Assembly (NCBI GenBank): GCA_965218785.1
Contig: OZ244650.1
Location: 1,536,001 to 1,600,000 of the forward strand
Direction of reading: 5' to 3'
DNA length: 64,000 bases
From: Nitrosopumilus sp.
Lineage (GTDB): Archaea > Thermoproteota > Nitrososphaeria > Nitrososphaerales > Nitrosopumilaceae
Numbering within the stretch: the stretch's first letter is position 1; the number at the start of each line of letters is the position of its first letter. Positions 2,166-64,000 of the stretch are shown in pieces. The position numbers were made by a program, and so were the translations under genes. The notes beneath the pieces were generated by a model. That model worked only from the letters and a program-made list of their open reading frames with translations. It was not told where the DNA came from and ran no database searches.

Positions 2166-2456
2166 TTGCAGAAAATAGAGTACGAGGGAACAGTATGGGT
2201 GCTAAATTACAACAATCCCCAGCCATTACTAGATCATGCGCTTCACATGCTAGAAAGACACGGAGTCAAACGAGAAGATATGGAGGTAACAGAAATACCA
2301 AAGGTAAAAGTTGGTGCGATAGTAATAGAAATTTGGCCATACGAGCTAGTTGTAGCTAGAGTCAGAACGACTCGTAATGAATCATTTATCAGCGGTACTG
2401 AATTTACAATTGAATTAAAATTAGACGAAAACGGGGATTACATAGATTATCTTTGA
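2166..2456 (+). CDS. Hypothetical protein (start likely TTG 2166 rather than 2046)
   Basis: Protein-like composition from LQKIEYEG; TATA-like TTATA about 25 nt upstream; stop overlaps next start. Confidence 0.65.
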   Translation: MQKIEYEGTVWVLNYNNPQPLLDHALHMLERHGVKREDMEVTEIPKVKVGAIVIEIWPYELVVARVRTTRNESFISGTEFTIELKLDENGDYIDYL

Positions 2457-3142
2457 AAAAAAATAAGATTCAAAACATCGTAATTACCGCAGTTGCCATA
2501 AGTATTATTGGCGCAATTGCATCATACAATTATTCAGTCGAACAAACCAAGCAAAAAGGTCTTCAGTTTGGAATAGAATTAGAAAAGATTCAAGAAGAGA
2601 TCAAAGAATTGCAAACAAAATTCTATTCTGAGAAAACCAGTTGGGAGGAAGGGGATATTTCAAAAGAACAGCTCTTGGAATTTTATCAAGTACATTTGGA
2701 GGAATTTAATGAAACAATTTCCAGATATGACGAGTTAGAACCCCCAGAGTTATTTGAAAGTTCAGTAAGATTGTTAAAGTTTTCATCCCAGACACAGTTG
2801 GAAAGCGACTCAGAGTTCATTGAATGGATGAAGACAGGAGACGAGTCAGCAAAAATAAGATCAGACAGCCAACTTCAAGAGTCTCTGGAATATGAAATGC
2901 AGGGATTAGTTGATTTTTATTCAGCAAAAACAGGTGTAAAAAATTATGACGAGCGGGAAAAGTTTTCTGCCCCACAAAGTGATTTGACACAAAGGGTCAT
3001 CAAAGTATCAGAGGATATGAAAAGCAAGTGTGAGAAGGAATTCAGAAACGAATCAGGGGAGTTTGATTCGGACGAAACAGAAAGGGACTGGTTTAACTGC
3101 ATTAATGAGGCTCAAAAATGGAAGATGGATCATCTTCCATAA
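2453..3142 (+). CDS. Hypothetical membrane-anchored helical protein
   Basis: N-terminal hydrophobic anchor followed by acidic helical/coiled-coil region and a C-terminal Cys pair. Confidence 0.75.
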   Translation: MKKNKIQNIVITAVAISIIGAIASYNYSVEQTKQKGLQFGIELEKIQEEIKELQTKFYSEKTSWEEGDISKEQLLEFYQVHLEEFNETISRYDELEPPELFESSVRLLKFSSQTQLESDSEFIEWMKTGDESAKIRSDSQLQESLEYEMQGLVDFYSAKTGVKNYDEREKFSAPQSDLTQRVIKVSEDMKSKCEKEFRNESGEFDSDETERDWFNCINEAQKWKMDHLP

Positions 3143-3191
3143 TTGCAAATTTTGACATAAACTTCTTTAAAGAATATAACTCAACTCAATT

Positions 3192-3950
3192 ATGGAAAAA
3201 TTTTCTGCCATTGCAGTTATTCTCATTGGATTTGTGCCAATGGCATTTGGAGATGTATTGATACAAAATGATCGACAGTATGTAGGAGATGACGGGGTAT
3301 ACCATGTTGTTGGCGAAATTAAAAACAACTTAAAGGCCCCATTAAATCAAATCAGAATTCAGATAACCATGTTTGATGAAAATCAGAATCCGATTGTAAC
3401 TAAAGAGACCAACTCTCTAGTAAACACAGTCATGCCTGGAATGAAGACCCCGTTTGATCTTGTTTTGACAGATAACGTAGGAAATATTGAATCATATTCA
3501 TTGAAATTAGATTACAAGATCAGTCCTCCAAAAAATCAAGTCATAGACATCACAGAATCAGAATTATCCAGAGATAATCACAGTAATTTGATAATAACTG
3601 GAACTGTCACAAACAAAGGGGACATCACTGCCAACACCGTAGCGATAATTGCAACACTTTATGACAAGAAAGGAGACGTCGCAGCCGTATCCAGGGTTCA
3701 TCCGGAACCGGATTATCTAAGGGTTGGAGATTACGCGTTTTTTTTAGTGGTGATTTCGGACAAAATTCAGACAGCAGGCATTGATGACTATACATTAATT
3801 GCAGAATCAGAGGAATATGCGGCTGTTCCGGAATTTCCAATAGATACAACGCTTGTTTTGCTGGTAGGTACCCTGACTGTATATATCGGAATTACAAAAT
3901 ATTCAGGCAGAATCATAACAAACCTAATCTCTGCAACAAATCCAAAGTAG
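3192..3950 (+). CDS. Secreted FxLYD-type double Ig-like domain protein with VPEF-TM C-terminal sorting signal
   Basis: Signal peptide; VVGEIKN..TMFD and ITGTVTN..TLYD repeats; AVPEF + TM + basic residues. Confidence 0.75.
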   Translation: MEKFSAIAVILIGFVPMAFGDVLIQNDRQYVGDDGVYHVVGEIKNNLKAPLNQIRIQITMFDENQNPIVTKETNSLVNTVMPGMKTPFDLVLTDNVGNIESYSLKLDYKISPPKNQVIDITESELSRDNHSNLIITGTVTNKGDITANTVAIIATLYDKKGDVAAVSRVHPEPDYLRVGDYAFFLVVISDKIQTAGIDDYTLIAESEEYAAVPEFPIDTTLVLLVGTLTVYIGITKYSGRIITNLISATNPK

Positions 3951-4374
3951 GAAAAAGCTCTTCAATTAATTCTGTTTTTTCAAGGGGGGTGGGTTTTGAA
4001 AATTTTACCTGAAAAGTAATTGTCAGCATATCTTGATCAGTGTGAGATATTCTAACAGAGTGGGCGTGATGATCAGTCTGTAACAAGAATCTTTTCCATT
4101 TTTCAATATGTTCTGTTACACGGACGAGGTTTTTTTCTACTTCAGAAATACTGGTATTCAAATCAGTATCAAACAATCTAAATTTGACAAGGGGGATCAT
4201 GACTAGTCCGCCTGGAATTTTATCATGATTTTTCAGCATTAATGAGGTAATTTCTTCACAGTTTTCTTTGGAATGAATATCACCATAATCAGGATCAAAA
4301 TATCCTGCAATCATTTTTTTAGAGTCAAATATACGAAAAAAGTCTTCATCAGATTCTAATTTCCACAATACCAT
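3913..4374 (-). CDS. Hypothetical protein
   Basis: 153-aa ORF filling the gap, ATG start, plausible composition. Confidence 0.65.
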   Translation of the reverse strand: MVLWKLESDEDFFRIFDSKKMIAGYFDPDYGDIHSKENCEEITSLMLKNHDKIPGGLVMIPLVKFRLFDTDLNTSISEVEKNLVRVTEHIEKWKRFLLQTDHHAHSVRISHTDQDMLTITFQVKFSKPTPLEKTELIEELFPTLDLLQRLGLL

Positions 4375-55908: not shown

Positions 55909-57108
55909 ATGACTCAAAAGGGAATTCTCGCATTTTCTGGAGGACTGGATACTTCAGTTGTTGTAAAGTATCTCCAGGAAGAACACGACATGGACGTCAT
56001 TACAGTCACAGTAGATGTTGGGCAGGGCGATGATGCTAAAAAAATCGCAGCAAAGGCAAAAAAACTCGGAGTAAAGAGGCACTACAACATTGATGCACGA
56101 AAAGAATTTGTCAGTGATTATGTTTTTCCATCAATTAAGGCAAATGCACTTTATCAGAAAAAATATTGTCTTGCAACAGCACTTGCAAGGCCATTGATTG
56201 CAGAAAAAATGCTGGATATTGCAAGAAAAGAAAAGGCAACATCGCTGGCACATGGGTGTTCTGGCAAGGGAAATGATCAGGTACGATTTGATATAACGTT
56301 ACGCTCCGGTTCTGAGCTTCCAATCATAGCCCCAATTCGAGACAAAAATCTGGACAGGGTCACCGAACTAAAGTTTGCAAAGAAACACGGAATTCAGATT
56401 GATTCTGTTGCAAAAAAATTCAGCATTGATCAAAACTTGTGGGGACGTGCAATTGAAGGAGGAGTATTAGAGGATCCATACAATGAACCGCCAGATGATG
56501 CATTCATTTGGGTTAAGACAAAAAATTTGCCAGACAAACCAACGTACATGGAGATTGAGTTTGAAAAAGGGATTCCGGTGGGAGTGGATGGAAAAAAAAC
56601 AGAGTCTCAAAAATTAATCCAATACATTAACAAAAAAGCAGGGGACGCAGGTGTCGGAATAATTGATCATATCGAAGACAGAGTCGTTGGAATCAAATCT
56701 CGTGAGGTTTATGAGACACCGGCGGCAACCTGTCTAATTGAGGCACATGCCGATCTAGAAAAAATGGTTCAAACCAAACATGAAAACAGATTCAAGTCCA
56801 TAATAGATGACGAATGGACGTATTTGGTGTATTCAGGACTCTGGCAGGATCCCCTTAAAACAGACCTGGATGGATTCATCGAAAGATCACAAAAACCGGT
56901 GTCGGGAACTGTGAGGCTAAAGCTGTACAAAGGAGGCCTGAGGGTGGTTGGAAGAAAATCCAAGAACTCGCTGTATAGTCACGATATTGCCACTTATGGC
57001 GCAGAATCAACATTTGATCAGAGATTGGCCAAGGGATTTGTAGAATTGTGGGGAATGCAATCAACAGAAGCTAATAAATTACAAAAGAAAAGGTCAACAA
57101 AAACATGA
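55909..57108 (+). CDS. argG: Argininosuccinate synthase
   Basis: AFSGGLDTS, GKGNDQVRF, DQNLWG, KSREVYE. Confidence 0.97.
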   Translation: MTQKGILAFSGGLDTSVVVKYLQEEHDMDVITVTVDVGQGDDAKKIAAKAKKLGVKRHYNIDARKEFVSDYVFPSIKANALYQKKYCLATALARPLIAEKMLDIARKEKATSLAHGCSGKGNDQVRFDITLRSGSELPIIAPIRDKNLDRVTELKFAKKHGIQIDSVAKKFSIDQNLWGRAIEGGVLEDPYNEPPDDAFIWVKTKNLPDKPTYMEIEFEKGIPVGVDGKKTESQKLIQYINKKAGDAGVGIIDHIEDRVVGIKSREVYETPAATCLIEAHADLEKMVQTKHENRFKSIIDDEWTYLVYSGLWQDPLKTDLDGFIERSQKPVSGTVRLKLYKGGLRVVGRKSKNSLYSHDIATYGAESTFDQRLAKGFVELWGMQSTEANKLQKKRSTKT

Positions 57109-57272
57109 ACTGCCCAGAATGTGACGCAGTATTAGACATCCCAGTAGATGCCTCAGTTGGAGAAATAATCTCCTGTCCTGATTGTGGCGCTGACTTTGAA
57201 ATCGCAAAAAAAGACGGATCAAATGTAGAGCTCAAACAGGCAGAAAGCGTAGGCGAAGACTGGGGAGAGTAA
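57105..57272 (+). CDS. lysW: Amino-group carrier protein LysW (copy 1, canonical EDWGE)
   Basis: MNCPECDA...CPDCGA...AESVGEDWGE*; 55 aa, absent from ORF track. Confidence 0.96.
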   Translation: MNCPECDAVLDIPVDASVGEIISCPDCGADFEIAKKDGSNVELKQAESVGEDWGE

Positions 57273-58129
57273 TGTCCAAAGTCTGTATTGTGTTTGATCG
57301 TCTAAGATCTGAGGAAAAGATGCTTCAGAAAGAGGCCTTGGAACTAGGACATGATGCAGTGATGCTCGATGCAAAAATCACTCAGATCAACACAGATAGT
57401 AAAAAAGAAGACTATGACTTTGGAGATGTCGTTTTGGAGAGATGTGTCAGTTACATCAGGGGGCTACATTTTACTGCCAGTCTGGAATTTTTGGATGTTC
57501 CAGTTTTGAACAAGTTCCAAGTTGCAAGTGTCTGTGGAAACAAAATGTTCATGAGCCTGCTTTTGAAGAAAAACAACATTCCAACGCCCAAGACATACTT
57601 TTCATTTTCAAGCCAAAGTGCGGCTGAAAATTTGGAGAAGGTCGGATATCCGCTTGTGATCAAACCAGTAATAGGAAGTTGGGGAAGGGGAATAGTTCCA
57701 ATTAAAGACAAGGATACCATGGATGCGATCACCGAGGTAAGGGACATTACAGACAATCTGCACGATCGAATCTACTATCTACAAGAATTAGTCAAGAGAC
57801 CTCCAAGAGATATCCGGGTGGTCACAGTAGGAGACGAGCCTGTCGCAGCAATGTACAGAAAATCATCAGGGGGGTTTAAGACAAACATAGCACTTGGTGC
57901 GGATCCAGAACTCTGTGAGATCACAAAAGAGATGGAGGAGATGGCATCAAAAGCATCAAAGGCCATGGGTGGCGGAATTTTAGGAGTAGATATGATGGAA
58001 GACGAGGAGAGGGGCCTAGTTGTTCATGAAGTAAATAATACGGTGGAATTCAAAGGACTGGCAAGAGTTGCAAAACGGAATATTCCAAAAGAAATGATGG
58101 AATTTGCCCTAAACTACGTTAGGAAATAA
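57272..58129 (+). CDS. argX: LysW-amino acid ligase (ATP-grasp), probably glutamate-specific ArgX
   Basis: KPVIGSWGR, RDIRV, EVNNTVEFKGL; located between argG/lysW and argC. Confidence 0.8.
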   Translation: MSKVCIVFDRLRSEEKMLQKEALELGHDAVMLDAKITQINTDSKKEDYDFGDVVLERCVSYIRGLHFTASLEFLDVPVLNKFQVASVCGNKMFMSLLLKKNNIPTPKTYFSFSSQSAAENLEKVGYPLVIKPVIGSWGRGIVPIKDKDTMDAITEVRDITDNLHDRIYYLQELVKRPPRDIRVVTVGDEPVAAMYRKSSGGFKTNIALGADPELCEITKEMEEMASKASKAMGGGILGVDMMEDEERGLVVHEVNNTVEFKGLARVAKRNIPKEMMEFALNYVRK

Positions 58130-59206: not shown

Positions 59207-60010
59207 ATGATCACAATCAAAATTGGCGGAAGTGTTGTAGACGACTTGCATCCATCCATAATTACAGACATTAAAAAAATAATAGAGTCAGAAGGGCTGA
59301 TTCTGGTTCACGGAGGCGGAAAGGAAGTTACAAAAGTTTGTAAGCAGCTTGGAAAGGAACCAAGATTTGTGAAATCACCAAGTGGAATTAAAAGCAGGTA
59401 TACTGACAAGGAGACTGTGGAAATTTTTACGATGGTAATGTCTGGTAGAATAAACAAAACAATTGTTCAGATGCTTCAGAAAAACGGCATTAATGCAGTC
59501 GGTCTGTCAGGCGTTGATGCCAGAGTTATAGAGGCCGACAGAAAGAAGAAACTCATCATAGTTAACGAAAAAGGCAGAAAACAGGCAATTGACGGCGGAT
59601 ATACTGGAAAGATTACCAATGTGAATGCCGGGTTTATCAAATCACTCCTAGAGCAGGGACTTACGCCTGTTATTTCACCCATAGCAATCAGCGAAGAGTC
59701 CGAATTTCTTAATGTGGACGGGGATCGGGCCGCGGCATATGTTGCCGGAAAGACAGGCAGCGACAAGGTATTATTCATCACAAATGTTGATGGATTATTA
59801 ATGGATGACAAACTTGTTCCCAAACTGACATTGGCAGAAGCAAGGGAGATTAGACCAAAGATAGGACCCGGTATGGAAAAGAAAATTTTGGCATCAACAG
59901 AGGCCCTGGATATGGGTGTAAGGCAGGCATTAATTGCAAATGGTCAGAAAGAGAATCCAATATCTTCTGCAATCGCACATGACAACTGTACGGTGATTGA
60001 ACATGAGTGA
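59207..60010 (+). CDS. lysZ: LysW-aminoadipate/glutamate kinase (ArgB/LysZ)
   Basis: IKIGGS, VHGGG, SRYTD, NVDGD, GMEKK. Confidence 0.92.
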   Translation: MITIKIGGSVVDDLHPSIITDIKKIIESEGLILVHGGGKEVTKVCKQLGKEPRFVKSPSGIKSRYTDKETVEIFTMVMSGRINKTIVQMLQKNGINAVGLSGVDARVIEADRKKKLIIVNEKGRKQAIDGGYTGKITNVNAGFIKSLLEQGLTPVISPIAISEESEFLNVDGDRAAAYVAGKTGSDKVLFITNVDGLLMDDKLVPKLTLAEAREIRPKIGPGMEKKILASTEALDMGVRQALIANGQKENPISSAIAHDNCTVIEHE

Positions 60011-61184
60011 GGATCAATTTATGGGAAACCTCTATCAGAGATTTCCAGTCACAATTGAGAGAGGGGCGGGATCCCACGTATGGGATGTCGATGGGAAAGA
60101 ATACATTGATTGCATGGGAGGATACGGTGTTGCACTAGTCGGTCATCAAAATCATAGAGTCAACAACGCAATAAGAGAGCAGATTGATAAAATAATCACT
60201 GTTCACAGTTCATTATACAACAAAACAAGGGAGGAATTTTTAAAGACACTCATTGGGCTGGCTCCCAAGGGACTCACACAAGTTCATCTAAACAATAGTG
60301 GTGCAGAGGCAGTAGAGGCCGCAATAAAGTTTGCAAGAAAGTTTACAGGTAAAAAGGGAATGGTTGCAATGAAAGGCTCTTACCACGGAAAATCTTTTGG
60401 AGCCCTGTCATTAACGTTTAGCCCAAAATACAAAAAAGCATTTGCCCCGCTTGTGGAGAAGGTCTCCTTTGCATCCTACGGGGATATTGAATCGCTTCGT
60501 GCAACAATAGATGATGATACGGCATTTGTAATCCTGGAGCCGATTCAGGGGGAAAGCGGCATCATTGTTGCACCAGAAGGGTTTTTGCAGGATGTAAGAA
60601 AGCTTTGTGATGAGAGGGGAATCCTGTTGATTTTTGACGAGATACAGTCAGGTTTGGGCAGAACCGGACGATTATGGGCCTGCGATCACTGGAATACAGC
60701 ACCTGATATTATGTGTCTTGCAAAAGGAATAGCAGGAGGGGTGCCGATGGGGGCAACCCTTGTCAGACCGGACATTTTATCTTCAATGAGCAAGGGGGAG
60801 CATTCCTCCACATTTGGAGGAAATCCCATGTCTTGCGCAGCGGGAACCGCGGCCCTTAAAGCATTAACAGAGGACGGATTGATTGAAAATTCTGAAAAAA
60901 TGGGAAAAATTTTCAGGGAAGGATTGGAAAAACTAAAAGAGAAACACACCATGATTAGAGAAGTTCGCGGAAAGGGACTCATGATAGGAATAGAGATAAA
61001 GTTTGAGATCAGGGATATTCTGATGGGGCTGATAAGTAAAGGCGTTCTAATGTTATACTCTGGAAGAAACATCCTAAGAATACTGCCACCCCTTGTAATA
61101 TCTGAAGAGGACATAACAAAAGTTTTACATGCACTTGATTCTGTATTAACTGAAGAGGAGCAAAAACGTAATGTACAAGGATAA
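60003..61184 (+). CDS. lysJ: LysW-semialdehyde aminotransferase (ArgD/LysJ), class III PLP
   Basis: NSGAEA, EPIQGE.G, DEIQSGLGRTG, AKG, STFGGNP. Confidence 0.92.
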   Translation: MSEDQFMGNLYQRFPVTIERGAGSHVWDVDGKEYIDCMGGYGVALVGHQNHRVNNAIREQIDKIITVHSSLYNKTREEFLKTLIGLAPKGLTQVHLNNSGAEAVEAAIKFARKFTGKKGMVAMKGSYHGKSFGALSLTFSPKYKKAFAPLVEKVSFASYGDIESLRATIDDDTAFVILEPIQGESGIIVAPEGFLQDVRKLCDERGILLIFDEIQSGLGRTGRLWACDHWNTAPDIMCLAKGIAGGVPMGATLVRPDILSSMSKGEHSSTFGGNPMSCAAGTAALKALTEDGLIENSEKMGKIFREGLEKLKEKHTMIREVRGKGLMIGIEIKFEIRDILMGLISKGVLMLYSGRNILRILPPLVISEEDITKVLHALDSVLTEEEQKRNVQG

Positions 61185-61590
61185 TATCGATCAAAAAATC
61201 ATAGGATATCTAAAGGAAAATTCCAGAGAATCCTTTGTAGATATTGGGAAAAAACTGAAACTTTCTGAATCAGCAGTGAGAAGACGTGTTAAAAATTTGA
61301 TAGGTGGCGGGATAATCAAAAAATTTACTTTGGAGTTAGGGGAAGAAAATGCGACTAGCGCCATTGTTTTAGTTTCCGTGGATTCTGCAACAGACACATC
61401 CAAAGTCTCCCAAAAACTTGTCAAATTAGAGGGAGTAAAAACAGTTTATGAGATTACAGGTCAATACGACATTACGACGATTATTAGTGCGGCGACAATT
61501 ACCGAAATCAACAACAGCATTGATGCGTTAAGAAAAATTCTCGGTGTTGTTGACACAAATACCGTAATTATTTTGAAAAAAGTAGTCTAA
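61171..61590 (+). CDS. lysM: Lrp/AsnC transcriptional regulator (LysM-like)
   Basis: HTH LSESAVRRRV, ITGQYD; inside Lys/Arg cluster. Confidence 0.82.
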   Translation: MYKDNIDQKIIGYLKENSRESFVDIGKKLKLSESAVRRRVKNLIGGGIIKKFTLELGEENATSAIVLVSVDSATDTSKVSQKLVKLEGVKTVYEITGQYDITTIISAATITEINNSIDALRKILGVVDTNTVIILKKVV

Positions 61591-61706: not shown

Positions 61707-62873
61707 ATGAAAGATCCGAATTACTATGCAGACATTTACAACGCATACGACAAAAATCCAAAGAAGATCAAGGTATTGGACAGTACTTTAAGGGAAGGCG
61801 AACAGCATCCCGGTGTTTCATTTACAAACAAACAAAGAATTCAGATTGCATGGATGTTGGATTATTTCGGGGTGGATCAAATTGAAATATCCCCGATTGT
61901 CTCCAGTGATCATAAAGAGGCAACCAAGACGATCATCAAACAAGGATTGACGGCAGACATTGTTTCACACGGACGTGCACTCAAAAAAGACATTGATGTA
62001 TCACTAGATTGTGATGCAAAATGGTGTGCCGTATATTTGGGAATCTCAGATATTCATCTAAAAGACAAGCTACGTATCTCAAAAGAGGAGGCACTTCACA
62101 GGGCAGTTGAGACTGTAGAGTATGCAAAATCTCACGGTCTTAAAGTTAGGTTTACAGTAGAAGACGGAAGCAGGGCAGAGCCCCAATTTTTACTCAGAGT
62201 GTGCAGTGCAATAGAGAAAGCAGGAGTTGACAGGATTAGTCTTCCAGATACGGTCGGGATTTTGCGTCCGATTGGAATGTATAATTTTGTCAAGAAGGTC
62301 AGAGAGGTAGTCGATGTTCCATTGGATGCACATGTTCACAACGACATGGGATTTGCAGTGGCAAATGCGTTTTCGGCCTGTGATGCAGGAGTCGACCAGA
62401 TTCATACTACTATTGACGGGATTGGGGAAAGAACCGGAATACCGCCACTAGCCGAAGTCGCAGTAGCACTGACTTTTCTATACAAGTCATCAAATGACTT
62501 TAGACTAGATATGCTGCTGGATCTGTCTAGATTAATCGAACAGTACACGTCAATCAAACCATATGACTCAAAACCCATCGTAGGATCATCGGCGTACAAA
62601 CACAAGGCAGGAACGCACCTGGCTGCAATTCTCAGAAATCCCGCAGCTTATGAGCCCATTCCACCACGCGTGGTTGGAAATAGAAGAAGAATTGTGTTCG
62701 GGGAACTGGCAGGAAAAACAGGAGCTGCATATCTGATGTCATTATTGGGTTTGAGCAAGGATGACGAGGGGGCAAAGGCAGTCGCTGCAGGACTAAAGGC
62801 TCTTAGAATGGGAGATCTTATCGAGATTCCCCTTGAGGACAGGCTTGAAAAAAAGATAATTAGTGATAAATAG
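61707..62873 (+). CDS. Homocitrate synthase (LeuA/DRE-TIM family)
   Basis: DSTLREGEQ, DTVG, HVHNDMG, GIGER.G, HKAG.H; no LeuA regulatory domain; lysine-cluster context. Confidence 0.85.
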   Translation: MKDPNYYADIYNAYDKNPKKIKVLDSTLREGEQHPGVSFTNKQRIQIAWMLDYFGVDQIEISPIVSSDHKEATKTIIKQGLTADIVSHGRALKKDIDVSLDCDAKWCAVYLGISDIHLKDKLRISKEEALHRAVETVEYAKSHGLKVRFTVEDGSRAEPQFLLRVCSAIEKAGVDRISLPDTVGILRPIGMYNFVKKVREVVDVPLDAHVHNDMGFAVANAFSACDAGVDQIHTTIDGIGERTGIPPLAEVAVALTFLYKSSNDFRLDMLLDLSRLIEQYTSIKPYDSKPIVGSSAYKHKAGTHLAAILRNPAAYEPIPPRVVGNRRRIVFGELAGKTGAAYLMSLLGLSKDDEGAKAVAAGLKALRMGDLIEIPLEDRLEKKIISDK

Positions 62874-62895: not shown

Positions 62896-63063
62896 ATGTC
62901 AAAATGTGAAGAATGCGATGCAGATATTCCCATACCAGCTGATGCGCTTGAAGGGGAGATTGTGACATGTCCGGAATGTGGTGCAAGTTTCGAGTTGGCT
63001 AAAAGTTCGGATGGTTTCAATCTAAAGCCTGCCCAAACAGTCGGCGAGGACTGGGGGCAGTGA
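62896..63063 (+). CDS. lysW: LysW paralogue (copy 2) ending in EDWGQ
   Basis: MSKCEECDA...CPECGA...AQTVGEDWGQ*; last codons GAG GAC TGG GGG CAG TGA. Confidence 0.93.
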   Translation: MSKCEECDADIPIPADALEGEIVTCPECGASFELAKSSDGFNLKPAQTVGEDWGQ

Positions 63064-63902
63064 GTCCTGACGTTACTATTCTTTATGATACCATCCGTTG
63101 GGAAGAAAAAGCTCTGCTAAAAGCTGGTAAAAAAAAGAATATCGATATTCAAATGATAGATTGTAAAAAGTTGGCAGTGGATTTGGAAAAAAAACCCGAA
63201 GAGTATGGCACTGTTATCCAGAGATGCGTGAGTTACTATAGAAATCTGCATTCAACTGCAGCCCTTGAGGGATTGGGGGTCAGGGTAATCAATTGTCTTA
63301 ACACGGGTATTTTTGCAGGAAATAAATTATTCACACACATGTTGTTGAAAAAATTTGGAGTGCCAACTCCAGATGCGACAGTTGCCTTTTCAAAAGATGC
63401 CGCAGTTGACGCATTAGAGAAACATGGATTTCCCAGAGTAATCAAGCCAACAGTTGGTAGTTGGGGCAGACTAGTCTCAAAATTAAATGACAAAGAGTCT
63501 GCTGAGGGAATTATTGAAAGCAGGGAAAACTTGTATCCAATTTATCACATTCACTATCTAGAAGAGTTTGTAAAAAGGCCTCCAAGGGATATCAGGGCCA
63601 TAGTGGTAGGAGATAGAATAGTTGCGGCAATTTACAGAAACTCCAAGAATTGGAAGACAAACATGGCACTTGGAGGAGTGGCAGAGCCATGCAAGGTCAC
63701 GCCGGAAATGGAAGAAATGTGTATAAAGGCAAAAAAGGCAGTTCAGGGGGATATCGTGGGTGTAGATTTGATGGAAAGCAATGAGAAAGGACTAGTGGTT
63801 CACGAAGTTAACAATACAACAGAATACAAGAATACTGTAAGGGTGTGCGAAATAGATATTCCCTCATTAATGCTCGATTATGCACTCAAAACAGGCAGGT
63901 AG
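63060..63902 (+). CDS. lysX: Alpha-aminoadipate-LysW ligase (ATP-grasp)
   Basis: RWEEKAL, RCVSYYR, KPTVGSWGR, EVNNTTEYKNT; follows homocitrate synthase and lysW. Confidence 0.88.
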   Translation: MSPDVTILYDTIRWEEKALLKAGKKKNIDIQMIDCKKLAVDLEKKPEEYGTVIQRCVSYYRNLHSTAALEGLGVRVINCLNTGIFAGNKLFTHMLLKKFGVPTPDATVAFSKDAAVDALEKHGFPRVIKPTVGSWGRLVSKLNDKESAEGIIESRENLYPIYHIHYLEEFVKRPPRDIRAIVVGDRIVAAIYRNSKNWKTNMALGGVAEPCKVTPEMEEMCIKAKKAVQGDIVGVDLMESNEKGLVVHEVNNTTEYKNTVRVCEIDIPSLMLDYALKTGR

Positions 63903-63905
63903 GAA

Positions 63906-64000
63906 TTGACGAATCATTTTACAATAACACCGAGTTTTGCAGTAAAGACACTTGAAAAGGCGCTCAGGCTGTACACGCCATCCCTCAGTGAAAAACCAAT
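63906..64000 (+). CDS. N-terminal fragment, probably LysW-lysine/ornithine hydrolase (LysK, M20 family)
   Basis: TTG start; LEKALRLYTPSLSE matches the M20 N-terminal L....PS..E pattern; expected position in cluster. Confidence 0.65.
   Translation, partial: MTNHFTITPSFAVKTLEKALRLYTPSLSEKP

What the first reader, a model, noticed from the sequence alone, without database searches (positions are those of the whole stretch)
62896..63063. LysW carrier paralogue ends in Gln (EDWGQ), losing the substrate-accepting gamma-carboxyl
Seen: the second lysW ends GAG GAC TGG GGG CAG TGA (EDWGQ). It keeps both CxxC zinc knuckles and is coupled (GTGA overlap) to lysX, downstream of homocitrate synthase. The overlap does not force Gln, since GAG-TGA gives the same GTGA. 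Established: in Thermus and Sulfolobus, LysX/ArgX ligate aminoadipate or glutamate to the gamma-carboxyl of the C-terminal Glu of EDWGE. Inference: as encoded, this carrier cannot be charged the normal way. It could be a pro-carrier needing deamidation (Gln equals LysW-gamma-NH2, which a LysK-type amide hydrolase might cleave, releasing ammonia in an ammonia oxidiser). It could instead be charged at the alpha-carboxyl or by transamidation, or act as a decoy that partitions flux between Lys and Arg. Each option would be an unusual variant of amino-group-carrier chemistry. I cannot confirm whether it has been described.
Basis: partly seen in the sequence, partly recalled or inferred. Interest (0 to 1): 0.8.

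Follow-up and report, generated by a model that had tools for sequence, protein, structure and literature searches.

The report
Lysine carrier protein ending in glutamine
The small carrier protein on which ammonia-oxidising archaea build lysine ends in glutamine instead of the glutamate that normally holds the growing amino acid, a conserved change that implies an undescribed activation step.

Summary
Confirmed. Window 62896-63063 (+) encodes a 55-aa LysW with two CxxC knuckles and the tail EDWGQ (CAG TGA). It overlaps lysX by GTGA and lies between a homocitrate-synthase-like gene and lysX-lysK. It is not an error. Contigs of four runs agree. The Gln end is kept in 24 of 24 congeners, in 111 of 112 genomes of the family, and in 111 of 111 genomes of a second family of ammonia oxidisers, with synonymous CAG/CAA change. 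The genome shows no DAP route and no ArgJ, and both carriers share single LysZ, LysY and LysK. Some complete genomes hold only Gln-ended LysW, so it is a working carrier, not a decoy. In the second family Gln and Glu swap between the arg-linked and lys-linked copies. One congener has Glu with an unchanged LysX. Among LysW relatives the tail ends only in Glu (91) or Gln (21). Best reading (0.55): a masked carrier whose Gln is deamidated to Glu, most simply by LysK or the ligase, as Dop does for PupQ; the normal gamma-carboxyl cycle follows. Alpha-carboxyl loading and direct amide exchange remain possible. I found no paper describing it. Why nearly every ammonia oxidiser keeps one Gln-ended copy is unexplained.

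The parts
62896..63063 (+). lysW2: a 55-aa amino-group carrier protein with a Zn ribbon (CEEC, CPEC) and the tail GEDWGQ
   Evidence: PF21344 47.5 bits. NF041070 89.5 bits against cut-off 75.
63058..63060 (+). Terminal CAG (Gln) codon, where canonical LysW has Glu. Its G is the first base of the lysX GTG start.
   Evidence: No other letter here in the contigs of 4 runs. CAG in 25 of 26 genus loci and GAG in 1.
63060..63902 (+). lysX2: ATP-grasp ligase of the LysX type. Its signature residues are I-I-M-NT at T. thermophilus positions 182/192/203/258-259.
   Evidence: TIGR02144 329.3 bits against 275.6. Alignment to 1uc8_A, read against the motif table of PMC12998189 section 6.
63906..64000 (+). 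Start of lysK ([LysW]-lysine/ornithine hydrolase, M20). It runs off the window to G000:C1:1601033.
   Evidence: ORF of 375 aa. TIGR01902 287.7 bits against 163.1. It is the only copy over the cut-off.
61707..62873 (+). Homocitrate-synthase-like gene (HMGL-like + HCS_D2)
   Evidence: NCBIfam scores are below the subfamily cut-offs.
61171..61590 (+). Lrp/AsnC-type regulator between the two clusters
   Evidence: PF13404, PF01037.
57105..57272 (+). lysW1 (argW): the carrier paralogue that ends GEDWGE
   Evidence: NF041070 83.8 bits.
57272..58129 (+). ArgX-type ATP-grasp ligase (signature V-M-I-GL)
   Evidence: TIGR02144 288.1 bits. Alignment to 1uc8_A and 3vpb_A, read against the motif of PMC12998189.
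58158..59204 (+). lysY/argC reductase, the only copy over the cut-off in the genome
   Evidence: TIGR01850 418.5 bits..
59207..60010 (+). lysZ kinase, the only copy over the cut-off in the genome
   Evidence: NF010662 298.4 bits..
59997..61184 (+). lysJ/argD aminotransferase
   Evidence: TIGR00707 437.8 bits against 410.05.
55909..57108 (+). Probable argG. It stands where relatives have the same 399-411-aa ORF before lysW1.
   Evidence: ORF. The same order of genes is seen in L036, L039, L184 and L185. The name is by recall of the N-terminal motif; it was not scanned against a family library.

Best explanation
LysW2 is a working amino-group carrier that is encoded in a masked form. Shown: the gene is real, it is conserved, and in several genomes it is the only kind of LysW. 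Inferred: before its first use, the gamma-carboxamide of the terminal Gln is hydrolysed to a carboxylate, turning Gln into Glu with release of NH3. The most economical candidate is an enzyme already in the pathway. LysK normally cuts this same gamma-glutamyl amide bond to release lysine or ornithine, and it is encoded two genes downstream. The ATP-grasp ligase is the other candidate. After that step LysX2 loads alpha-aminoadipate on the gamma-carboxyl, the shared LysZ, LysY and LysJ process it, and LysK regenerates LysW-Glu, so the amide matters only for a new carrier molecule. The logic matches PupQ, Dop and PafA in actinobacteria. My odds for the deamidase, within the 0.55: LysK about 0.3, the ligase about 0.15, another amidase about 0.1.
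For: 1. The form is functional, not broken.
- G000 has no lysA or dapA and no ArgJ.
- It has two LysW only.
- It has one LysK, one LysY and one LysZ over cut-off.

2. Some genomes hold only Gln-ended carriers.
- G118 (one contig, 99% complete) has HCS-LysW(Q)-LysX-LysK and argG-LysW(Q)-ArgX-LysY, and no other LysW at E <= 0.001.
- G075 has the same layout.
- G038 (one contig) has a single LysW(Q) with two LysX-family ligases.
- ArgJ was found in 0 of 5 genomes.
- 74 of 111 f15 genomes have no DWGE-stop, and all 111 have EDWGQ-stop.

3. Only Glu or Gln ends the tail.
- Of the 150 best representatives, 91 end in E, 21 in Q and 0 in another residue; 38 rows lack a WGx end.
- Of the 120 best close hits, 113 end in Q and 1 in E. 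Six are read-through or chimeric calls: 4 with Q, 1 with E, 1 with P at that place.

4. Glu and Gln are interchangeable in the same context.
- G286, of the same genus, has HCS-LysW(E)-LysX-LysK.
- Its LysX has no private substitution against 25 Q-partnered congeners. The one exception is the overlap codon itself.
- In f15, G136 and G256 have LysW1 = Q and LysW2 = E, G065 has the reverse, and G149 and G208 have both Q.

5. No dedicated amidase sits beside Q-type LysW in the loci of other lineages. The neighbours are an ATP-grasp ligase, argH, a thiolase and a CobW-like GTPase.

6. There is a precedent. Passages of the Introduction of PMC8599861 state that PupQ is deamidated by Dop, which is also the depupylase, before PafA activates the gamma-carboxylate, and that other species encode PupE.
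Against: No deamidation was observed; the step is inferred.
- If the amide mattered only for the first turnover, one would expect the residue to drift. Instead the state is strongly conserved within lineages: f1 has LysW2 Q in 111 of 112 genomes and a DWGE-stop (taken to be LysW1) in 109 of 112. Meanwhile the neighbouring Gly codon varies (GGA 20, GGG 5, GGC 1 in 26 loci).
- 222 of 223 genomes of f1 and f15 keep at least one Gln end. This points to a use for the amide form that the model does not explain.
- M20 hydrolases usually bind the leaving amino acid, so NH3 as leaving group may be a poor substrate (my own knowledge, not tested).
- No RNA holder was listed, and I saw no proteomic data.
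Confidence: 0.55

Rival explanations
1. Direct use of the amide. The ATP-grasp ligase (LysX2 or ArgX) itself takes LysW-Gln and exchanges the amide nitrogen for the amino group of aminoadipate or glutamate. One route would be phosphorolysis of the amide to the acyl-phosphate, as Dop does with bound ADP and phosphate. No separate deamidase would be needed, and possibly no net ATP in that turnover.
For: - Q-type LysW is always followed by, or paired with, a LysX-family ligase, in distant lineages too.
- Both ligase types work with Q-ended partners somewhere.
- The ligase needs no change when Q and E swap.
- Dop, a homologue of the ligase PafA, handles the Gln amide through a phosphate in its active site (PMC8599861, passages).
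Against: LysX is an ATP-grasp enzyme, not a GS-like one. No ATP-grasp enzyme is known to me to activate an amide (recall). After LysK hydrolysis the carrier is Glu in any case, so the saving would apply once per molecule. Nothing in the sequence sets the Q-partnered ligases apart.
Confidence: 0.15
2. Alpha-carboxyl loading. LysX2 attaches aminoadipate to the alpha-carboxyl of the terminal Gln, as its relative RimK does with Glu on protein S6. The Gln stays for good and blocks the gamma position.
For: - LysX2 also scores over the cut-off of the RimK alpha-L-glutamate ligase subfamily (TIGR00768, 287.3 bits against 143.4).
- A permanent role for Gln would explain its strong conservation within lineages.
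Against: - The tail ends only in Glu or Gln, although Asp, Lys, Ala, Gly and Val are also one base away from a Glu codon.
- One set of LysZ, LysY and LysK must serve the E-ended and the Q-ended carrier in the same cell, so it would face two linkages of different length.
- E and Q swap between both paralogues and both ligase types within one family, and without any change in LysX. Each swap would need a switch of regiochemistry.
Confidence: 0.12
3. Non-chargeable paralogue. LysW2-Gln is never loaded and acts as a decoy, a regulator or a structural partner of LysX2, while LysW1-Glu carries both pathways, as the single LysW of Sulfolobus does.
For: In the window's genome an E-ended LysW1 exists. 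A single LysW serving two ligases is established for Sulfolobus (cited in PMC6038301, passage).
Against: - G118, G075, G149 and G208 have two LysW, both Q. G038 has one LysW, and it is Q. G166 and G345 have two, both Q.
- ArgJ is absent in G038, G118 and G345.
- 74 of 111 f15 genomes have no DWGE-stop.
Confidence: 0.04

Closest known systems
LysW/ArgW amino-group carrier proteins of Thermus thermophilus, Sulfurisphaera tokodaii/Sulfolobus and Thermococcus kodakarensis (PDB 3wwl, 3vpb, 5k2m)
   Same: Size (53-56 aa), Zn-ribbon globular domain, acidic tail ...EDWG-, pairing with a LysX/ArgX ATP-grasp ligase, and the LysZ/Y/J/K set.
   Different: All three solved carriers end in Glu, and its gamma-carboxyl is the attachment site. 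This one ends in Gln as encoded.
Pup with C-terminal Gln (PupQ), deamidase/depupylase Dop and ligase PafA of actinobacteria
   Same: A small carrier or tag is attached through the gamma-carboxylate of its last Glu. Some species encode Gln there, which must be deamidated first, and the enzyme that deamidates also cuts the isopeptide. Other species encode Glu (PMC8599861, Introduction passages). The mix of Q and E among related lineages is seen here too.
   Different: There is no homology. Pup is disordered and LysW is a Zn ribbon. PafA and Dop are glutamine-synthetase-like, LysX is ATP-grasp, and LysK is an M20 metallohydrolase. The acceptor here is a free amino acid, not a protein lysine. Deamidation of LysW has not been shown.
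RimK and ribosomal protein S6 (alpha-L-glutamate ligation at a C-terminus)
   Same: LysX2 belongs to the RimK family (TIGR00768, 287.3 bits; PF08443). The substrate is a protein C-terminus.
   Different: RimK extends the alpha-carboxyl with Glu residues. LysX-type enzymes are established to use the gamma-carboxyl of the last Glu. Which carboxyl is used here is untested.

Membership tests
LysW/ArgW amino-group carrier protein | Zn-ribbon globular domain with two CxxC knuckles, scoring over the family cut-offs | tested here: met
   CEEC and CPEC in the sequence. PF21344 47.5 bits against 27. NF041070 89.5 bits against 75. The older equivalog TIGR01206 stays below its cut-off (31.7 against 53.2), as it does for LysW1 (34.6).
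LysW/ArgW amino-group carrier protein | Acidic flexible tail ...EDWG- at the very C-terminus | tested here: met
   GEDWG- is aligned to the tails of 3vpb_E, 3wwl_A and 5k2m_E.
LysW/ArgW amino-group carrier protein | C-terminal Glu whose gamma-carboxyl accepts the amino acid | tested here: not met
   The encoded residue is Gln (CAG). Whether it becomes Glu in the cell cannot be told from sequence.
LysW/ArgW amino-group carrier protein | Encoded beside a LysX/ArgX ligase and with the LysZ/Y/J/K set in the genome | tested here: met
   lysX2 overlaps by 4 bases and lysK follows it. lysY, lysZ and lysJ lie upstream.
LysW/ArgW amino-group carrier protein | Is covalently loaded with aminoadipate or glutamate and unloaded by LysK | not testable with these tools
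   This needs mass spectrometry or enzyme assays.
LysX (aminoadipate-specific) versus ArgX (glutamate-specific) ligase, for the partner of LysW2 | Five-residue signature at T. thermophilus LysX positions 182/192/203/258-259: LysX F-I-T-NS, ArgX I-Y-V-GF, bifunctional Y-I-T-NA | tested here: inconclusive
   LysX2 reads I-I-M-NT, which is LysX-like or bifunctional-like at 192 and 258-259. The other ligase reads V-M-I-GL, which is ArgX-like at 258-259. I read these by eye from the HMMER alignments against PMC12998189 section 6. Neither ligase is an exact match.
Pup / Dop / PafA system (considered as a working analogy only) | Homology of carrier, ligase and deamidase to Pup, PafA and Dop | tested here: not met
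   The Pfam and NCBIfam scans of LysW2, LysX2 and the neighbours give Zn_ribbon_LysW, RimK ATP-grasp and M20 families only. The resemblance is in logic, not descent.

The most novel reading that the evidence does not exclude
Ammonia-oxidising archaea keep at least one Gln-ended carrier because the amide form has a job of its own. Two forms of this idea are open. In one, the ATP-grasp ligase works like Dop and swaps the amide nitrogen for aminoadipate or glutamate without spending ATP. In the other, the deamidation step is a gate that ties entry of new carrier into the lysine and arginine pathways to LysK activity or to nitrogen status. Either would be a new layer of chemistry or control in carrier-protein-mediated amino acid synthesis, convergent with Pup.
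Probability: 0.15. Interest if true: 0.85.

Novelty: new variant of a known kind. Interest (0 to 1): 0.72.

Why it matters
LysW-mediated synthesis is the only visible route to lysine, and with ArgX to arginine, in ammonia-oxidising archaea, which are among the most abundant microbes in oceans and soils. The textbook mechanism depends on the gamma-carboxyl of the last Glu of LysW. This scan shows that the carrier of this whole group, and of some Caldarchaeum-like and other archaeal lineages, is encoded without that carboxyl, and in many genomes no Glu-ended copy exists. Either a maturation step is missing from the pathway as drawn, or the loading chemistry differs.

Both possibilities can be tested directly with a 55-residue protein and three enzymes. 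The parallel with PupQ and Dop suggests that masking a gamma-glutamyl attachment site as Gln is a recurrent solution, and its purpose is still debated for Pup as well. The finding also matters for annotation and metabolic models, which now treat these proteins as ordinary LysW.

Tried and rejected
- Sequencing or assembly error: rejected (contigs of 4 runs).
- Private mutation: rejected (24 of 24 congeners).
- Gln forced by the overlap: rejected. GAG TGA gives the same GTGA. Relatives with CAG TAA, CAA TAA or CAG TAG and no overlap also end in Gln. In many congeners a TTG 13 bases upstream could start lysX, and the Q/E base would then change one residue of that extension (T against R). G000 lacks that TTG, so I take the GTG as the start.
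- Decoy: see the rival explanations.
- A dedicated amidase next to Q-type lysW: none found in the loci I looked at.
- Ligase co-variation with Q/E: none. The Glu-ended G286 LysX has no private residue, so no column can separate the two states. I did not run a wider independent-pairs test.
- Tree of 103 LysW representatives, with the terminal residue removed: 14 changes of state for 18 Q tips, and the 5 shuffles I printed gave 14-17. Either Q arose many times or a 50-residue tree is unresolved, so I draw no count of origins from it.
71 of the 80 loci are LysW. 9 are chance matches in bacteria or TGG read-ons (L041, L045, L070, L080, L082, L092, L103, L109, L119). It therefore says little about bacteria.
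- L159 (G450, f27) is a chance match in a 16-aa frame.
- RNA: no RNA holder was listed, so nothing can be said about expression.
- lysA-like hits under the cut-off in G038 and G118 (236 and 248 bits against 297.9): I did not resolve them, so a DAP route in family f15 is not excluded. dapA was searched only in G000.
- Complex prediction, structure prediction and fold search were not used. LysW with LysX or LysK would pass or fail regardless of Q or E.
- Mistranslation of the Gln codon as Glu through Glu-tRNA(Gln), which archaea make as an intermediate (recall): considered and not testable here; I put it under 0.03.
- Literature searches: 'EDWGQ' anywhere gave 0 papers. LysW+Nitrosopumilus gave 4 papers, none on the terminus in the passages of two that I read. 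LysW+EDWGE gave 2 (listing only). LysW+deamidation gave 1, unrelated. LysW with C-terminal Gln/glutamine terms gave no paper holding LysW among the 15 listed of 241. The FEBS J 2025 paper PMC12998189 has 0 occurrences of Gln, glutamine, Nitroso or Thaumarchaeo. One search was badly framed and told nothing.
- The original papers on Thermus and Sulfolobus LysW are not in the searchable library, so I saw nothing of them and what I say of them is recalled.
- No supplementary files were asked for. Proteome tables of cultured ammonia oxidisers could bear on whether the C-terminal peptide is seen as Q or E.

Full report
**What is there**

The window carries two adjacent clusters on the + strand.
- Cluster 1: a probable argG (55909-57108), lysW1 ending GEDWGE (57105-57272), an ATP-grasp ligase (57272-58129), lysY/argC, lysZ and lysJ.
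- An Lrp/AsnC regulator follows (61171-61590).
- Cluster 2: a homocitrate-synthase-like gene (61707-62873), lysW2 (62896-63063), lysX2 (63060-63902), and lysK from 63906, which runs off the window.

LysW2 has 55 residues, the two knuckles CEEC and CPEC, and the tail GEDWGQ with codons CAG TGA. It passes the Pfam and NCBIfam LysW models (47.5 bits against 27; 89.5 against 75).

I read the HMMER alignments to T. thermophilus LysX against the five-residue specificity motif published for this family (PMC12998189, section 6).
- The lysW2-linked ligase reads I-I-M-NT, closest to the LysX and bifunctional types at positions 192 and 258-259.
- The lysW1-linked ligase reads V-M-I-GL, closest to ArgX at 258-259.
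- Neither is an exact match, so the names LysX and ArgX rest on motif plus context.

**It is not an error or a private change**

Contigs of four public runs from three studies cover position 63058 without another letter. One run may be the source sample, and contigs hide rare variants.

In 41 genomes of relatives, the best LysW2 match ends in Gln in all 24 other genomes of the genus and in three genomes of other families. It ends in Glu in two.

Of the 120 best hits among 302 in the large protein collection, 113 end in Gln. One ends in Glu (P0001, a cluster seen on 24 contigs). Six are read-through or chimeric gene calls: four with Gln, one with Glu and one with Pro at that place. Names given by sources place these proteins in Nitrosopumilus, Nitrosarchaeum and Nitrosotenuis.

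**Distribution**

I scanned 401 genomes of the order for EDWGQ followed by a stop-like codon.

| Family | Genomes with a match |
|---|---|
| f1 (the window's family) | 111 of 112 |
| f15 | 111 of 111 |
| f9 | 7 of 11 (all 7 of genus g9) |
| f4 | 2 of 9 |
| f10 | 1 of 97 (that match reads on through TGG) |
| 15 further families (50 genomes) | 0 |

The reversed control pattern gave 0.

The matching scan for DWGE-stop found it in 109 of 112 f1 genomes but in only 37 of 111 f15 genomes. It was common in the families without Gln, for example f10 (76 of 97) and f7 (13 of 13). This shorter pattern has some chance matches, as its control shows.

One further record is titled Jordarchaeia. In all, 71 of 80 loci were LysW and 9 were chance matches. 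From this I infer that f1, f15 and g9 are the ammonia-oxidising families.

Outside the order, a sample of 401 genomes of the phylum found the pattern in f28 (13 of 16), f34 (9 of 27) and single genomes of f49 and f55.
- The loci I fetched from these four families are true LysW followed by a LysX-family ligase: G423, G581, G430, G576, G564 and G555.
- One match in f27 was chance.
- A Gln-ended cluster is named Candidatus Caldarchaeum by its source.

**Only Glu or Gln**

Among the 150 best representatives of LysW2 relatives at 50% identity, 91 end in WG-E, 21 in WG-Q and none in another residue. The other 38 rows are fragments or other Zn ribbons without such an end. All three solved LysW end in Glu.

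A Glu codon is one base away from Asp, Lys, Ala, Gly and Val as well. The exclusive use of Gln says that the gamma-carbonyl and the chain length matter.

**The Gln form works as a carrier**

The window's genome (97% complete) shows no lysA, no dapA and no ArgJ. It has two LysW, two LysX-family ligases, and single LysK, LysY and LysZ over cut-off. Lysine and ornithine must therefore pass through this set.

More telling are genomes in which every LysW ends in Gln.
- G118 (one contig, 99% complete) has HCS-LysW(Q)-LysX-LysK and argG-LysW(Q)-ArgX-LysY, with no further LysW at E <= 0.001. G075 has the same layout.
- In G149 and G208 both LysW copies also end in Gln.
- G038 (one contig) has a single LysW, Gln-ended, with two ligases. 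ArgX follows argG directly.
- G166 and G345 of the window's family have two Gln-ended copies.
- ArgJ was found in none of G000, G286, G345, G038 and G118.

This excludes a decoy role for the family as a whole. A caveat: G038 and G118 have a lysA-like hit below the cut-off, and I searched dapA only in G000, so for f15 the argument rests mainly on arginine.

**Gln and Glu are interchangeable in place**

G286, of the window's genus, has the same HCS-LysW-LysX-LysK context with a Glu end. Its LysX differs from 25 Gln-partnered congeners at no position in a private way. The only exception is the residue encoded by the overlapping codon itself, in a possible N-terminal extension.

In f15 the states swap between the paralogues.
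- G136 and G256 have Gln on the argG-linked copy and Glu on the HCS-linked copy.
- G065 has the reverse.
- G149 and G208 have Gln on both.

**Mechanism**

Established chemistry (recalled for the original work; consistent with the structures and the FEBS J text seen here) puts the adduct on the gamma-carboxyl of the last Glu. An ATP-grasp ligase needs a carboxylate.

Four facts bear on the mechanism:
- Only Glu or Gln ends the tail.
- The two states swap freely without any change in the ligase.
- One downstream enzyme set serves both carriers in one cell.
- The form is obligately functional.

The simplest account is that Gln is a masked Glu: it is deamidated once, and from then on the carrier cycles as LysW-Glu, because LysK regenerates the carboxylate.

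LysK is the obvious candidate. LysW-Gln is the smallest amide of the bond LysK normally cuts, and lysK lies in the same operon-like string. The ligase is the second candidate.

The parallel is the Pup system. PupQ is deamidated by Dop, which is also the depupylase, before PafA activates the gamma-carboxylate, and other actinobacteria encode PupE (PMC8599861, Introduction passages). There is no homology between the two systems. The likeness is one of logic.

**What this does not explain**

If the amide counted only for the first turnover, the site should drift. It does not.
- In the genus the terminal codon is CAG in 25 of 26 loci, while the neighbouring Gly codon is GGA 20, GGG 5, GGC 1.
- In named records the Gln codon itself varies (CAG 58, CAA 14).
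- States are uniform within genera.
- 222 of 223 genomes of f1 and f15 keep at least one Gln-ended copy, although which copy differs. Two Glu ends were seen once (G286).
- These genomes are kin and the number of independent flips is small, perhaps five or more, so this is a pattern and not a test.

The pattern leaves room for a function of the amide form itself: a gate on entry into the pathway, or direct amide exchange by the ligase. It also keeps the alpha-carboxyl reading alive at low odds.

**Novelty**

I found no paper that mentions a Gln-ended LysW. The searches are listed under Tried and rejected. The founding papers of the field are outside the searchable library, and no supplements were seen. 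A metabolic model of N. maritimus treats its LysW as ordinary (PMC6038301, passages).

I rate this a new variant of a known kind. It is a well-supported, widespread deviation at the one residue that defines the carrier's chemistry, and its mechanism is open and directly testable.

Noticed in passing
window 61171-61590: An Lrp/AsnC-type regulator sits between the arg-type and lys-type clusters, overlapping the end of lysJ. A LysM-type Lrp regulator controls lysW operons in Sulfolobus (title and abstract of PMC3597687 in the listing).
   Followed up: no
L185 (G038:C1:2639000-2652000), 2267-4328: In this single-LysW genome the argG-like gene runs straight into ArgX with a 14-base overlap. The lysW1 gene that stands there in relatives is gone, so one Gln-ended LysW must serve both ligases.
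   Followed up: partly
L037 and L038 (G166, G345): In genus g28 of the window's family the second LysW, also Gln-ended, stands alone next to an iron-type alcohol dehydrogenase gene instead of before ArgX. ArgX lies elsewhere.
   Followed up: no
L179 896-2110 and L182 6004-7236 (family f28): A conserved protein of about 405 aa with a weak CobW/HypB/UreG GTPase match lies between lysJ and lysK in both f28 loci. It could be a metal chaperone for the Zn proteins of the pathway.
   Followed up: no
L180, L182, L183 and 3vpb_E: Several LysW, both Gln-ended and Glu-ended, have E-H-x-x-C in place of the second CxxC knuckle. The Zn site is therefore not uniform in the family.
   Followed up: no
window 63038-63121: In read laying, short contigs of very high word depth (up to about 5500 in run X2) cover only the lysW2 tail and the lysX start, with T>C at 63077 and 63086. 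They probably come from abundant relatives that share this conserved stretch.
   Followed up: no
L003-L029, 13 bases before the lysW2 stop: Most relatives have a TTG in the lysX frame inside the codons for D-W of LysW (GAT TGG), giving a possible longer LysX (LGTV...). G000 has GAC there and lacks it, which favours the GTG in the GTGA overlap as the real start.
   Followed up: partly
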